This document shows positions 61,087 through 64,000 of a DNA stretch of 64,000 bases, piece by piece. Each line of letters starts with the position of its first letter. The stretch's first letter is position 1. The DNA is taken from IMG/VR virus record IMGVR_UViG_3300024346_000003. One strand, written 5' to 3'. Below the pieces are notes generated by a model that worked only from the letters and a program-made list of their open reading frames with translations, was not told the DNA's origin and did no database searches. A program made the position numbers and the translations under genes. The DNA is from a virus (lineage: Duplodnaviria > Caudoviricetes).

Positions 61087-64000
61087 ATGGTTAAAAATAA
61101 TTTATTAATAATAACATCTCACTTATCAACAGGTGGTGCACCTCAGTTTACATTAAATAAAATTGAACTATTAATGCTTGATTATAATGTTGTATGTGTT
61201 GAATATAATTTTTTATCACCAGACTTCGTAGTTCAAAGAAATAAGATAATTAATTTATTAGGTGATAAATTTATTTCTCTTGGTGATGATAAATTTAACC
61301 TACTTAAAGTTATAGAAGATTTTGACCCTGAATTAATTTTTATAGAAGAATTATCTGAAACTTTTATTGATTCAACCATGTTACCTAAACTTTATGATGA
61401 AAATAGACAATATAAGATATTTGAAACAACACATAGTTCATACGATTCAAAACAATTAAAAAAGTACTTACCTGATAAATTTATATTCGTATCTGAATAC
61501 TCAAAAAAAATGTATGAGGATTTGGGTGTTGAATCAACAGTTATAGAATATCCAGTTGATAAAAAAAATAAATCACAAGAACTTGCCATTGAAAAATTAA
61601 ATCTTGACCCAAATTCAAAACATGTTATAAATATTGGATTGTTTACTCCAGGCAAAAACCAAGGTTATGCTTTTGAATTAGCTAGACAATTTGAAGGTGA
61701 AAATGTAACATTCCATTTTATAGGGAATCAAGCTGGTAATTTTCAAGATTATTGGAAACCATTAATGGAAACTATACCAAGTAATTGTGTAATATGGGGA
61801 GAGAAAGATAATACTGAAGATTTTATAATGGCTAGTGATTTATTCTTATTCACATCTAAACTAGAATTAAATCCATTAGTGGTTAAAGAAGCACTAATGT
61901 ATGACTCAAATATCCTAATGTTTAATTTAGAAACATATTGTGGTTCATATGATAATGAAGAATGTATTTCTTTTTTAACTGGTGATATTGATACCGATGT
62001 TAATAAAATGATTGACTTATTACAATTGAATGAAGTTGATGATGGTCATTATGATTTTATTGAGATTGGTACATCAGATTTTGACACATTAATTGAAGAA
62101 TCGACTAACCTAACTAAAGGGATAAGTATTGAACCAATAAAGTATTATATCGATAGATTACCAAATAAACGAAATGTTGAAAAGGTACAAGCTGCTATGT
62201 CAGATGAAGAAGGTAAAATAGATATATACTACATAGAAGATAATAATATTGATGCTTATAATTTACCATGGTGGGTTAGGGGTAGTAATAGTGTAAATAA
62301 TCCACATCCATTTACCGTTAAAGAAATTGGTAAAGAATTATATGATAAATTAGTTACAATTCAAGAAGTACCAACTATTACTTGGTCAACCTTAATTGAT
62401 AAGTATAATGTAAAAAGTATTGATTATTTAAAAGTTGATACTGAAGGTTATGACCACGTTATTTTAAATGAGTATTTAAATGAGTGTGAAAAGAATCCAG
62501 GTTTATTAGCAAATAAAATAAAATTTGAATGTCATAATGAAGTTTCAAATAAAGAGGAAATTACTAAATTATTAAAAAGATTTACTGGTTATGATGTTGA
62601 ATATCTAATGAGTGATATAATTTTAAGAAAACAAAAGATACCTAGAATTATACATCAAACATATAAAACAAATGAGTTACCAGTTGAATTAAGTAATAAT
62701 GTTGAACAACTTAAAAAAATGAATCCAACATTTGAATATAGATTCTACAATGATGAAGACTGTGTAAATTTTATAAAGGAAAATTATCCAGAAGAAACAT
62801 TAAAACTGTATTTAACCATTAATGATAGTTATGGCCCAGCTAAAGCTGACTATTTTAGATATCTATTAATGTATAAAGTTGGTGGGGTTTATTTAGACAT
62901 TAAAAGCACAACAACAGTACCATTAGAAGACACATTATTATATACCGATGAATATCTTTTGTCACATTGGCCAGGTAAAGATTGGTCCGATGAATTAGGT
63001 TATTCACTTGGTGAATTTCAAAATTGGCATATCATATGCAAACCCGAACACCCATTTCTAAAGAAAACAATAGAACTAGTTGAAGATAACATTAGAAACT
63101 ATACCGATGGAGCGGGTAAAGAGGCCGTATTAAGAACTACAGGACCAATTGCATACAGTAAGGCGATATTATCATTATTAAACGATTATAGACCACTTAT
63201 GACTGATTCACCAGTAAGAGAATACCAAGTGTCAGAAGAAATTGGTTTAACGTATATGAATACTAACGTACATCACCATAGTTTATACAAAGGATATCCA
63301 GATAATGAAAAATTAATTAATGATAGTTTAGTAAAGCATGGGTATGTATTATACAGTAATGTTAAATACTTTAACATCGTTAGTGCGGCAGCAAAATCAA
63401 TTAGAGCATTTAGTAATCTACCAATATATGTATATATGTTAGATTCTGATTTAAAGGTTAATGTTGAAAATGTAACAACAATTAAGTGGGTTTGTAATTT
63501 AGAAAACGATGCTAATATGTATGAAAGTTCAGAATCTAACTTTTATATAAATAGAAATAATTCAAACATCTATAAATTACTAATACAAAGACCACTAATC
63601 ATGAAAGATGTTTTAACTAATTATTTAGATATTGCGGTATATGTTGATAGTGATTCGATTGCAACACCAAATGTTGATAATATCTTTAACTTATACACTG
63701 ATTTTAGTTACCCATTCTTTGTTCAAGGTGTTTATGATTATTTATTTGCAAATGGTAGAGGTGGTGCTGAAACTAAAGAAGATTTAACAACCACATTGGA
63801 ACACCCAGCTTGTGAACTATATAGCGTTAATCAAAAGGTACGTGAAAGATATAGACAAACTGGTTATTTTATTGCTAGTAAAGATTGTATCGATTTCATG
63901 GATGAGTGGTATTGGATGTGCATAAACCCAAAAATATTAAAAAATAATGAACATTATGCACCATATAATGAAGAAACAATATTAAATGTTTTGTTATGGA
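61087..64000 (+). CDS. Multi-domain glycosylation enzyme: GT4 (GT-B), FkbM methyltransferase, GT32-like and GT-A (GT8-like) domains; truncated by the window edge and absent from the ORF track
   Basis: Hand translation gives 971 codons with no stop. HLSTGGAPQ...NIGLFTPGKNQ...DLFLFTSKLELNPLVVKEA (E-x7-E); FIEIGTSDFD...SIEP...IDYLKVDTEG; KIPRIIHQTYK...KADYFRY...GGFYLDIK...HPFL...TTGP; AVYVDSD...EETILN. Confidence 0.9.
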   Translation, partial: MVKNNLLIITSHLSTGGAPQFTLNKIELLMLDYNVVCVEYNFLSPDFVVQRNKIINLLGDKFISLGDDKFNLLKVIEDFDPELIFIEELSETFIDSTMLPKLYDENRQYKIFETTHSSYDSKQLKKYLPDKFIFVSEYSKKMYEDLGVESTVIEYPVDKKNKSQELAIEKLNLDPNSKHVINIGLFTPGKNQGYAFELARQFEGENVTFHFIGNQAGNFQDYWKPLMETIPSNCVIWGEKDNTEDFIMASDLFLFTSKLELNPLVVKEALMYDSNILMFNLETYCGSYDNEECISFLTGDIDTDVNKMIDLLQLNEVDDGHYDFIEIGTSDFDTLIEESTNLTKGISIEPIKYYIDRLPNKRNVEKVQAAMSDEEGKIDIYYIEDNNIDAYNLPWWVRGSNSVNNPHPFTVKEIGKELYDKLVTIQEVPTITWSTLIDKYNVKSIDYLKVDTEGYDHVILNEYLNECEKNPGLLANKIKFECHNEVSNKEEITKLLKRFTGYDVEYLMSDIILRKQKIPRIIHQTYKTNELPVELSNNVEQLKKMNPTFEYRFYNDEDCVNFIKENYPEETLKLYLTINDSYGPAKADYFRYLLMYKVGGVYLDIKSTTTVPLEDTLLYTDEYLLSHWPGKDWSDELGYSLGEFQNWHIICKPEHPFLKKTIELVEDNIRNYTDGAGKEAVLRTTGPIAYSKAILSLLNDYRPLMTDSPVREYQVSEEIGLTYMNTNVHHHSLYKGYPDNEKLINDSLVKHGYVLYSNVKYFNIVSAAAKSIRAFSNLPIYVYMLDSDLKVNVENVTTIKWVCNLENDANMYESSESNFYINRNNSNIYKLLIQRPLIMKDVLTNYLDIAVYVDSDSIATPNVDNIFNLYTDFSYPFFVQGVYDYLFANGRGGAETKEDLTTTLEHPACELYSVNQKVRERYRQTGYFIASKDCIDFMDEWYWMCINPKILKNNEHYAPYNEETILNVLLW

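What the first reader, a model, noticed from the sequence alone, without database searches (positions are those of the whole stretch)
61087..64000. Four-domain glycan assembly-line polyprotein (GT4, FkbM methyltransferase, GT32-like, GT-A) missed by the ORF track
Seen: one uninterrupted frame of at least 971 codons. Approximate domains: GT-B/GT4 (61087-62010, intact E-x7-E), FkbM-type methyltransferase (62040-62620), GT32-like (62635-63300, canonical DxD reads DIK) and a second GT-A domain (63330 onward, DSD). Established: these families build and O-methylate glycans, and phage GTs modify DNA, host surfaces or virion proteins. Inference: a fused enzyme making a methylated oligosaccharide. Its position beside fibre and sheath genes and the [ST]GxT enrichment favour virion glycosylation over DNA modification. 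Together these may form an undescribed virion-glycosylation system.
Basis: partly seen in the sequence, partly recalled or inferred. Interest (0 to 1): 0.8.

Follow-up and report, generated by a model that had tools for sequence, protein, structure and literature searches.

The report
Phage fibre-glycosylation operon with four-module enzyme
A large aquatic phage encodes a real 1,042-residue enzyme made of three sugar-adding modules and one sugar-methylating module, and its neighbours (a relative of the bacterial enzymes that sugar-coat adhesins, plus serine/threonine-saturated fibre genes) indicate that the phage most likely sugar-coats its own fibres.

Summary
The frame at 61087-64000 is open for 971 codons, and the complete gene is 1,042 codons in the parent record. 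All four proposed modules are real:
- D1: GT4, with an intact EX7E motif.
- D2: FkbM methyltransferase.
- D3: GT32-like. Its D-I-K is invariant in 68 homologues, so it is selected and not decayed.
- D4: a retaining GT-A domain with an invariant DxD (LgtC Z 16.1).

Just beyond the window, the next gene is an equivalog-level Aah/TibC protein O-heptosyltransferase (BAHT). A second FkbM and a DUF6165 gene follow.

On one side the operon is divergent from a 28-repeat YadA-head fibre gene beside the tail sheath gene. On the other it is convergent with proline-free Gly-Thr-Ser collagen-like fibre genes. A second BAHT paralogue sits beside a second YadA-head protein.

Hundreds of metagenomic relatives fuse these modules to the BAHT domain in at least 10 domain orders. 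The phage BAHT keeps the catalytic residues and the iron finger but lacks the dodecamer "thumb" and the adenine-reading Arg.

Best reading (~0.6): cytoplasmic O-glycosylation of the phage's own fibres. It is unproven, and neither the sugar nor the target is identified.

This scan has noted similar modules on other genomes. I found no publication describing them.

The parts
61087..64000 (+). First 971 of 1,042 codons of the four-module glycosyltransferase/methyltransferase (P0002). The gene ends 215 nt beyond the window, at G000:C1:32863.
61087..62046 (+). Module D1 (aa 1-320): GT4-type GT-B glycosyltransferase. EX7E lies at E260 (61864-61866) and E268 (61888-61890).
   Evidence: Pfam PF00534 27.0 bits against 26.4. 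E260 and E268 are kept in 116 of 117 homologues and K190 in 117 of 117.
62047..62631 (+). Module D2 (aa 321-515): FkbM-family SAM-dependent methyltransferase.
   Evidence: Pfam PF05050 42.7 bits against 22.7. E326, G328, T329, D451, E453 and G454 are invariant in 94 homologues.
62632..63321 (+). Module D3 (aa 516-745): GT32-like GT-A domain in which the DxD motif reads D-I-K (62896-62904).
   Evidence: Pfam PF04488 40.4 bits against 23. D604 and K606 are invariant in 68 of 68 homologues. The motif aligns to Och1 D-M-D and YeGT D-I-D.
63322..64000 (+). Module D4 (aa 746-1042, cut by the window end): retaining-type GT-A domain, GT8/GT6-like, with DxD at 63646-63654.
   Evidence: AF2 pLDDT 89.8. 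LgtC Z 16.1, BoGT6a 15.4, glycogenin 14.6, PBCV-1 A64R 13.5. D854, D856, H1024 and K1027 are invariant in 115 homologues.
59468..60997 (-). 509-aa YadA-head repeat protein (about 28 repeats of 14 residues, consensus EGxxTxASGxxSHA), divergent from the operon across 89 bp. It has no signal peptide and no membrane anchor. Candidate glycosylation substrate and fibre.
   Evidence: Pfam PF05658 83 bits; repeat profile; no hydrophobic segment and no YadA anchor in the record.
59420..59441 (.). Bidirectional intrinsic-terminator-like hairpin that closes the fibre gene as its own transcription unit.
   Evidence: 3 terminator-like sites found against 0.7 expected
56283..59117 (-). Tail sheath gene (944 aa), which places the operon at the edge of the tail module.
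   Evidence: PHROG 23 'tail sheath', E 2.6e-60
55687..56175 (-). Tail tube gene (162 aa).
   Evidence: PHROG 4542, E 7e-27

Best explanation
The ORF is the first gene of a four-gene operon. The genes have overlapping stops and starts, and none of the products has a hydrophobic segment, so all appear to be soluble.

1. The 1,042-aa enzyme has four modules: GT4, FkbM methyltransferase, a GT32-like module with D-I-K, and a GT8/GT6-like retaining GT-A module.
2. A 382-aa relative of the bacterial autotransporter heptosyltransferases (BAHT; Aah/TibC).
3. A second FkbM methyltransferase.
4. A DUF6165 protein.

Proposed mechanism:
- In the infected cytoplasm the BAHT-type enzyme attaches the first sugar to Ser/Thr hydroxyls of the phage's repetitive fibre proteins. 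These are the proline-free Gly-Thr-Ser collagen-like shafts and/or the YadA-head beta-roll proteins.
- The three glycosyltransferase modules extend that sugar into a short oligosaccharide.
- The FkbM modules O-methylate it.
- The result is densely glycosylated fibres. The likely purpose is to stabilise or solubilise the shafts, which lack both proline and salt bridges, and to shield them or tune adsorption.

Shown: the domain identities, the conserved catalytic residues, the operon layout, the natural fusions and the gene neighbourhoods.

Inferred: the substrate, the order of steps, the sugars and the biological purpose.
For: 1. P0003 matches NCBIfam TIGR04414 'autotransporter strand-loop-strand O-heptosyltransferase' at 292.9 bits against a cut-off of 200. 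It matches TibC (PDB 4RAP) at E 3e-56.
2. The catalytic Asp-110, the beta-phosphate binders Thr-226 and Lys-230, Trp-305 and all four iron-finger Cys are invariant in 57 unique phage homologues. They are nearly invariant in 149 cluster representatives. The residue roles come from PMC4358343.
3. Many natural proteins of 1,447-1,743 aa fuse the same GT32, GT4, FkbM and D4 modules to the TibC-type domain. Some also carry DUF6165, pyruvyl-transferase or GT25 domains.
4. GT4 accompanies TibC in 76 of 80 viral loci and D4 in 52 of 80.
5. This phage has two BAHT paralogues, and each lies beside a YadA-head repeat protein: 509 aa, and 1,298 aa with a 349-aa paralogue.
6. All four fibrous ORFs among the 74 ORFs of 100 aa or more in the record lie within 10 kb of a BAHT gene.
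7. 30 of 50 de-duplicated related loci have a convergent collagen-repeat tail-fibre ORF in the flank.
8. In 35 such ORFs (7,380 triplets), Pro fills 0.23% and Ser+Thr 86% of the X/Y positions.
9. Glycosylated Thr is a documented alternative stabiliser of collagen helices (PMC11923368).
10. No enzyme or candidate substrate has a hydrophobic segment, signal peptide or anchor.
11. All four modules of P0002 keep invariant catalytic motifs.
Against: - No glycan, glycopeptide or expression data exist, and no RNA run is listed for this DNA.
- Adjacency to fibre genes is not universal. 20 of 50 loci show no collagen-like ORF in the flanks. In the complete 326-kb relative G001 the collagen-like ORFs lie far from the module.
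- YadA-head proteins next to the module were found only in this phage and its near twin.
- The conserved Ser/Thr of a beta-roll may be structural residues and not acceptor sites.
- The adenine-contacting Arg-286, whose Ala mutant abolished or largely diminished TibC activity, is Thr in 55 of 57 close homologues. No GmhA is encoded by this record or by two complete relatives. The donor is therefore unknown and 'heptose' is not established.
- GT4, GT32 and GT8-like enzymes with FkbM partners also build lipopolysaccharide and capsule glycans.
Confidence: 0.6

Rival explanations
1. The operon glycosylates other virion proteins (capsid, sheath or tube) and not the fibres, as mycobacteriophages do at the C-termini of capsid and tail-tube subunits.
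For: The operon borders the sheath and tube genes. In four related loci it also lies next to a sheath gene. Mycobacteriophage virion glycans sit on capsid and tube subunits, as summarised in PMC12619734.
Against: BAHT enzymes act on repetitive beta-solenoid adhesin passengers (PMC4358343). The Ser/Thr-saturated repeat proteins are the fibres, and 86% of their X/Y positions are hydroxyl residues. Both BAHT paralogues lie next to YadA-head proteins.
Confidence: 0.12
2. The enzymes remodel a host envelope glycan or a host surface protein (lipopolysaccharide, capsule, S-layer or adhesin) during infection, for example to block superinfection or to aid release.
For: GT4, GT9, GT32 and GT8-like enzymes and FkbM methyltransferases are typical of envelope-glycan clusters. 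Weak NCBIfam matches point to lipoteichoic-acid anchor and teichuronic-acid enzymes and to LPS heptosyltransferases. Cyanophage authors read similar gene sets as host-surface modifiers (PMC12801897).
Against: There is no membrane segment, flippase, polymerase, ligase or priming phosphoglycosyltransferase in the operon. The GT9-type member matches the protein-modifying BAHT equivalog at 292.9 bits, against 23 bits or less for the LPS heptosyltransferase models. The module sits among late structural and fibre genes.
Confidence: 0.15
3. The enzymes glycosylate hypermodified bases in the phage DNA as an anti-restriction measure.
For: Phage glycosyltransferases of both folds are known to modify DNA (PMC12619734).
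Against: No DNA-glycosyltransferase family matched. FkbM enzymes methylate sugar hydroxyls of glycans. The BAHT equivalog and its iron finger are protein-substrate features. The operon sits in the tail and fibre region, not with nucleotide-metabolism genes.
Confidence: 0.03

Closest known systems
Bacterial autotransporter heptosyltransferases (BAHT): TibC (PDB 4RAP/4RB4) and Aah, which hyper-heptosylate Ser residues of the TibA/AIDA-I adhesin beta-helices (PMC4358343)
   Same: The operon's second gene is an equivalog-level match. It has the same catalytic Asp, the same beta-phosphate Thr/Lys, the same Trp and the same four-Cys iron finger. It is encoded next to a repetitive beta-solenoid-type protein and is cytoplasmic and soluble.
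   Different: - The 9-residue beta-hairpin thumb that makes the dodecamer ring is deleted in all 57 close phage homologues.
- The adenine-N1 contact Arg-286 is Thr in 55 of 57.
- The neighbouring repeat protein has no signal peptide or outer-membrane anchor.
- The enzyme is embedded in, or fused to, a multi-enzyme elongation and methylation set. Bacterial BAHTs are single-sugar enzymes encoded directly upstream of their autotransporter gene.
Chlorovirus PBCV-1 multidomain glycan enzymes A064R (two rhamnosyltransferase domains plus a 2-O-methyltransferase) and A111/114R (three GT domains), which build the capsid-protein glycans (PMC7826918)
   Same: A virus-encoded single polypeptide joins several glycosyltransferase modules with a sugar methyltransferase to build a virion-protein glycan independently of host machinery. 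The D4 fold resembles the A64R GT domain (2p6w, Z 13.5).
   Different: - PBCV-1 infects a eukaryotic alga and makes N-linked glycans on the major capsid protein.
- There is no detectable sequence homology.
- PBCV-1 has no BAHT-type initiator.
- Here there are four modules, in 10 alternative orders across relatives.
Mycobacteriophage virion glycosylation (Freeman et al. 2023, cited through PMC12619734; the paper itself is not held)
   Same: Phage-encoded glycosyltransferases, encoded near the structural genes, decorate the phage's own virion proteins.
   Different: In mycobacteriophages the glycans sit on the C-termini of capsid and tail-tube subunits and the hosts are actinobacteria. Here the enzyme families differ (BAHT, GT32-like D-x-K, GT8/GT6-like), the presumed targets are repeat fibres, and the phages are aquatic jumbo phages. 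None of this was compared at sequence level.
Glycosylated collagen-like proteins: Bacillus anthracis BclA (O-linked rhamnose-anthrose oligosaccharides on its collagen-like region) and the vent-worm cuticle collagen with galactosylated Thr (PMC11923368, PMC6222408)
   Same: Gly-X-Y shafts in which Thr replaces hydroxyproline are O-glycosylated. The BclA glycan ends in a 2-O-methylated sugar. Glycosylating Thr turns (Gly-Pro-Thr)10 from random coil into a triple helix.
   Different: The phage shafts are essentially Gly-Thr-Ser, with 0.23% Pro and almost no Lys/Asp/Glu salt-bridge pairs. The enzymes are unrelated to the BclA system. Glycosylation of the phage shafts is inferred, not shown.

Membership tests
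BAHT (Aah/TibC protein O-heptosyltransferase), for the operon partner P0003 | Scores above the curated cut-off of the equivalog model TIGR04414 | tested here: met
   292.9 bits against 200, covering model positions 31-374 of 374
BAHT (Aah/TibC protein O-heptosyltransferase), for the operon partner P0003 | Catalytic base Asp-110, beta-phosphate binders Thr-226 and Lys-230, heptose-O4 binder Trp-305 | tested here: met
   D117, T229, K233 and W298 in P0003; invariant in 57 phage homologues
BAHT (Aah/TibC protein O-heptosyltransferase), for the operon partner P0003 | Four-Cys iron finger (Cys-339, 342, 358, 370) | tested here: met
   C333, C336, C352 and C364; kept in 57 of 57 close homologues and 149 of 152 in the wider sample. 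Iron binding itself cannot be tested here.
BAHT (Aah/TibC protein O-heptosyltransferase), for the operon partner P0003 | Arg-286 contact to adenine N1 (specificity for an ADP-activated sugar) | tested here: not met
   Thr-279 in P0003; Thr in 55 of 57 close homologues. In the wider family the position reads T, R, V, I, L or A.
BAHT (Aah/TibC protein O-heptosyltransferase), for the operon partner P0003 | Beta-hairpin thumb (Phe-265/Val-266) that builds the dodecameric ring | tested here: not met
   A 9-residue deletion in all 57 close homologues. In the wider sample the segment is short in 75 of 152, intermediate in 56 and full-length in 21.
BAHT (Aah/TibC protein O-heptosyltransferase), for the operon partner P0003 | Transfers heptose from ADP-heptose to Ser of an autotransporter passenger | not testable with these tools
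   No GmhA in this record or in two complete relatives. The neighbouring repeat protein has the YadA-head fold but no anchor.
GT4 (Pfam Glycos_transf_1), module D1 | Pfam gathering score reached and EX7E motif present | tested here: met
   27.0 bits against 26.4, which is marginal. E260 and E268 are kept in 116 of 117 homologues. A GT-B fold was not confirmed, because the full-length model is poor.
FkbM methyltransferase (PF05050 / TIGR01444), module D2 | Family model thresholds | tested here: inconclusive
   Pfam 42.7 bits against 22.7 is met, but NCBIfam TIGR01444 at 34.6 bits is below its 37.7 cut-off. Conserved E-x-G-T and D-x-E-G blocks are invariant in 94 homologues.
GT32 (Pfam Gly_transf_sug, 'sugar-binding region containing DXD motif'), module D3 | DxD metal-binding motif | tested here: not met
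   The motif reads D-I-K where Och1 has D-M-D and YeGT has D-I-D. Lys is invariant in 68 of 68 homologues. The Pfam score itself is met, 40.4 against 23.
Retaining GT-A enzymes of the GT8/GT6 type, module D4 | GT-A fold with DxD, nearest to LgtC, glycogenin and GT6 structures | tested here: met
   LgtC Z 16.1 (rmsd 3.6, 223 residues aligned), BoGT6a Z 15.4, glycogenin Z 14.6. Foldseek matches GT6 enzymes at E about 2e-8 with TM about 0.5. The DxD is invariant.
Retaining GT-A enzymes of the GT8/GT6 type, module D4 | Sequence-level membership of a named CAZy/Pfam family | tested here: inconclusive
   No Pfam, NCBIfam or PDB sequence match covers aa 746-1042. dbCAN was not available.
Trimeric autotransporter adhesin (YadA type), for the 509-aa neighbour | Signal peptide, head repeats and C-terminal YadA anchor barrel | tested here: not met
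   The head repeats are present (PF05658, 83 bits). There is no hydrophobic N-terminus and no YadA_anchor anywhere in the record.

The most novel reading that the evidence does not exclude
A widespread pathway, carried mostly on phage contigs, uses a thumbless BAHT-type initiator with altered nucleotide recognition plus freely recombining elongation, methylation and pyruvylation modules. It densely O-glycosylates Gly-Thr-Ser collagen-like tail fibres. Because these shafts have neither proline nor salt bridges, glycosylation would be what allows the triple helix to fold. That would make this a viral counterpart of the glycosylated-threonine collagens.
Probability: 0.35. Interest if true: 0.85.

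Novelty: new variant of a known kind. Interest (0 to 1): 0.68.

Why it matters
If the reading is right, it matters for four reasons.

- **Scale.** Tail-fibre glycosylation would be a common, self-encoded trait of large aquatic phages, not a curiosity of mycobacteriophages. The BAHT-like protein has 783 cluster representatives at E <= 1e-30. Relatives occur in a 735-kb megaphage and in a cultured Microcystis phage.
- **Fibre folding.** It would explain how phage fibres built from thousands of proline-free Gly-Thr-Ser triplets can fold.
- **Enzyme evolution.** It would extend the BAHT family beyond pathogen adhesins. It would also give a natural series in which the oligomerisation thumb and the nucleotide-reading residue have been lost or varied.
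- **Applications.** The soluble modules occur in at least 10 domain orders, which makes them a possible toolbox for protein glyco-engineering.

Glycan-coated fibres would also bear on host recognition, protease resistance and the antigenicity of phage particles.

Tried and rejected
- **Complex prediction.** The job for the BAHT-like protein with the DUF6165 protein returned no verdict. It says nothing either way.
- **Full-length fold.** The 1,042-aa model used 11 close homologues and was poor (pLDDT 56, pTM 0.37). I did not use it for domain packing or to confirm the D1 and D3 folds.
- **Expression.** No RNA holder is listed for this DNA.
- **Promoters.** Sigma-70-type promoter scans gave counts at chance level in this AT-rich DNA. 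I drew no promoter conclusions.
- **YadA repeat HMM.** An HMM built from the YadA-type repeats found such proteins only in this record and its near twin L006. 'YadA fibre next to the module' is therefore not a general rule.
- **Mel-JY01 neighbour.** The 508-aa 'structural protein' beside the Mel-JY01 fusion is not detectably homologous to the 509-aa protein here.
- **Donor pathway.** No GmhA was found. Cytidylyltransferase-like genes in two relatives lie far from the module and I did not pursue them.
- **Literature.** Searches for phage TibC/heptosyltransferase, Mel-JY01 and glycosylated collagen-like tail fibres found no description of this system. This covers only the library held. The mycobacteriophage paper itself (PMC10527164) is not held.
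- **DNA glycosylation and lipid-linked glycan synthesis.** I considered both and ranked them low, for the reasons given under the rival explanations.
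Full report
**1. Observation**

The + strand frame starting at ATG 61087 is open to the last base of the window, 971 codons. The ORF lister shows it only when open-ended frames are requested, which is a plausible reason for the ORF track missing it. The window is the minus strand of G000:C1:33078-97077, a 109,443-bp viral record that CheckV rates 31% complete.

**2. The four modules**

Three modules reach Pfam gathering scores:

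| Module | Family | Residues matched | Bits / cut-off |
|---|---|---|---|
| D1 | Glycos_transf_1 (GT4) | 165-312 | 27.0 / 26.4 (marginal) |
| D2 | FkbM Methyltransf_21 | 338-461 | 42.7 / 22.7 |
| D3 | Gly_transf_sug (GT32-type) | 532-613 | 40.4 / 23 |

The last 300 residues (D4) have no sequence-family match. I aligned 35 D4 homologues from related viral loci. The fold was confident (pLDDT 89.8, pTM 0.90).
- Foldseek places D4 with retaining GT6 enzymes (E about 2e-8, TM about 0.5).
- The Foldseek-independent search gave LgtC (GT8) Z 16.1, BoGT6a Z 15.4, glycogenin Z 14.6, the Skp1 alpha-galactosyltransferase Z 14.6, the PBCV-1 capsid-glycan enzyme A64R Z 13.5 and the adhesin-glycosylating GlyE Z 13.5.

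Conservation across 68-117 homologues shows that every module is under selection:
- D1: EX7E (E260/E268) in 116 of 117.
- D2: the E-x-G-T and D-x-E-G blocks in 94 of 94.
- D4: DxD plus H1024 and K1027 in 115 of 115.
- D3: the odd D-I-K has D and K invariant in 68 of 68. It aligns to D-M-D of Och1 and D-I-D of YeGT. This is a fixed variant of the metal-binding motif, not decay.

**3. The operon beyond the window**

Three ORFs follow with overlapping stops and starts.

*P0003 (382 aa).* It matches the NCBIfam equivalog for the Aah/TibC 'autotransporter strand-loop-strand O-heptosyltransferase' at 292.9 bits against a cut-off of 200. It matches the solved TibC structure at E 3e-56. These enzymes glycosylate proteins, namely Ser residues in the beta-helix of AIDA-I/TibA adhesins (PMC4358343).

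*P0004 (224 aa)* is a second FkbM methyltransferase. *P0005 (124 aa)* is a DUF6165 protein.

I mapped the residues defined in the TibC paper onto an alignment of three bacterial BAHTs, one directly upstream of an AIDA-I gene, and 57 unique phage homologues.
- Invariant in the phage proteins: the catalytic Asp-110, Thr-226 and Lys-230 (beta-phosphate), Trp-305 (heptose O4) and all four iron-finger Cys.
- Changed: the adenine-N1 contact Arg-286 is Thr in 55 of 57.

An exhaustive search found 783 cluster representatives at E <= 1e-30. In the best 149 the catalytic residues and the Cys tetrad persist. The Arg position varies (T, R, V, I, L, A). The thumb is short in about half.

**4. Functional linkage of the four-module enzyme to the BAHT**

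A search with P0002 returned 913 relatives from a capped candidate list. Many are single chains of 1,447-1,743 aa in which the same GT32-like, GT4, FkbM and D4 modules are fused to the TibC-type domain. Some add DUF6165, pyruvyl-transferase or GT25 domains. Among 120 homologues I found 10 domain orders. The arrangement here (D1-D2-D3-D4) accounts for 11, and the commonest is D2-D3-D4-D1, often followed by TibC.

Across 80 viral loci anchored on the TibC-like gene:

| Module | Loci (of 80) |
|---|---|
| GT4 (D1) | 76 |
| D4 | 52 |
| Second FkbM | 41 |
| DUF6165 | 32 |
| D2 | 13 |
| D3 | 8 |

The core is therefore BAHT plus GT4 (plus D4), with methylation and further transferases as optional additions.

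The module also occurs in the 735-kb uncultured phage LR756501 and, as a 1,226-aa fusion annotated only as 'FkbM', in the cultured Microcystis phage Mel-JY01.

**5. Candidate substrates**

*First YadA-head protein.* Divergent from the operon across 89 bp lies a 509-aa protein scoring 83 bits on Pfam YadA_head.
- It consists of about 28 near-perfect 14-residue repeats, EGxxTxASGxxSHA.
- Thr at position 5 and Ser at position 12 are kept in 90-100% of repeats.
- A bidirectional terminator closes it off as its own unit, and the tail sheath and tube genes follow.
- It has no signal peptide, and the record holds no YadA anchor. It is a fibre built on the adhesin head fold, not an autotransporter.

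*Second YadA-head protein.* A 1,298-aa protein with 43 repeats lies 25 kb away. It is followed by a second BAHT paralogue (349 aa, 38% identical to P0003). That paralogue keeps the Asp, Lys, Arg and Trp but lacks the iron finger.

*Collagen-like proteins.* On the other side, convergent with the operon, are two collagen-repeat proteins of 531 and 1,657 aa. Their triplets are Gly-[Thr/Ser]-[Ser/Thr] with no proline.

All four fibrous ORFs among the 74 ORFs of 100 aa or more in the record lie within 10 kb of a BAHT gene.

**6. Generality and controls**

After de-duplication at 95% identity, 30 of 50 related loci contain a collagen-repeat ORF in the roughly 8-kb flanks. It is always convergent and usually less than 3 kb away. 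The largest reach 2,654 aa, score up to 906 bits on Pfam Collagen and match PHROG tail-fibre families.

A rough background comes from two collagen ORFs per 109-326 kb, which gives about 10-35% for a window of that size. The enrichment is real but moderate. In the complete relative G001 the collagen ORFs are distant from the module.

Composition is the stronger signal. In 35 collagen-like ORFs from genomes carrying the module (7,380 triplets), proline fills 0.23% of X/Y positions and Ser+Thr fill 86%, with few charged pairs. By contrast, a survey of collagens reports that viral collagen-like proteins are rich in Lys-Gly-Asp salt-bridge triplets. The same survey reports that (Gly-Pro-Thr)10 folds into a triple helix only when its Thr residues are galactosylated (PMC11923368). 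I did not analyse phages that have collagen-like fibres but lack the module, so the co-occurrence has no negative control.

**7. Mechanism and rivals**

*Best reading.* The best-supported reading is cytoplasmic O-glycosylation of the phage's own fibre proteins before assembly. The BAHT-type enzyme would initiate, the three transferase modules would extend, and the FkbM modules would methylate. All enzymes and candidate substrates lack hydrophobic segments. The operon contains no component of a lipid-linked export pathway.

*Donor sugar.* It is open. The loss of the adenine contact, together with the absence of GmhA in this record and in two complete relatives, means that 'heptose from ADP-heptose' cannot be assumed.

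*Substrate.* Which fibre class is the substrate is also open. Across phages the Gly-Thr-Ser shafts are the more general partner. In this phage the YadA-head proteins are the closest neighbours of both BAHT paralogues.

*Rivals.*
- Other virion proteins as targets: 0.12.
- Host envelope remodelling: 0.15.
- DNA glycosylation: 0.03.

**8. Comparison with the known, and novelty**

The system works like a combination of two known things. One is the bacterial BAHT adhesin-glycosylation enzymes. The other is the virus-encoded multidomain glycan enzymes of chlorovirus PBCV-1: A064R with two GT domains plus a methyltransferase, and A111/114R with three GT domains (PMC7826918). Phage virion glycosylation as such is known from mycobacteriophages (cited in PMC12619734).

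P0003 meets most but not all BAHT features: the thumb and Arg-286 are not met. D3 fails the DxD criterion of GT32. D4 belongs to no named sequence family.

I found no paper describing a phage BAHT or this operon. I rate it a new variant of a known kind.

Earlier notes of this scan recorded similar TibC-containing fusions and proline-free fibres on other genomes, including a follow-up that also found the thumb missing. My tests here agree with them. Notes that assign the phage to Bacteroidota-type hosts were not tested.

The locus recurs in aquatic metagenomes from several studies.

Noticed in passing
L003:11744-12793 (G000:C1, outside the window): A second BAHT paralogue (349 aa, 38% identical to P0003). 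It keeps the catalytic Asp, Lys, Trp and the adenine-contact Arg but lacks both the iron finger and the thumb. It sits directly after a 1,298-aa YadA-head protein and two small ORFs of 86 and 122 aa.
   Followed up: partly
window 59468-60997 and L003:7535-11431: In the 14-residue YadA-type repeat, the His at position 13 ('SHAEG') is invariant in all 67 exactly spaced repeats of the two proteins. I do not know whether this is usual for YadA heads or hints at metal binding or pH sensing.
   Followed up: no
L031:9767-12505 and cluster-7 relatives in about 12 loci: A 912-aa ORF near the module in related phages combines AXH-module matches with several Hint/intein-type domains. This is an unusual combination of unknown role.
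   Followed up: no
proteins P0125, P0140, P0145: Some metagenomic relatives contain two to four BAHT-like stretches in one chain, that is, tandem initiator domains.
   Followed up: no
proteins P0022-P0025, P0053, P0105-P0114: Fusion variants add a polysaccharide pyruvyl-transferase (PF04230) or GT25 (PF01755) domain to the same module set. This suggests pyruvylated or otherwise varied glycans in other phages.
   Followed up: no
L041:939-4133 and cluster-2 relatives in 14 loci: A roughly 1,064-aa ORF with no Pfam match (PHROG 15511, unknown function) is the recurrent divergent neighbour of the module in the phages that lack an adjacent collagen-like gene. It may be another fibre or substrate.
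   Followed up: partly
window 59420-59441: A perfect bidirectional terminator hairpin lies between the YadA-head fibre gene and the region upstream of the sheath gene.
   Followed up: no
L005:4750-8430 (Microcystis phage Mel-JY01, PP395634): The deposited annotation 'methyltransferase FkbM' hides a 1,226-aa protein with GT4 and TibC-type domains. The record also has a 'cytidylyltransferase like protein' 3 kb downstream, which could relate to donor-sugar activation.
   Followed up: partly
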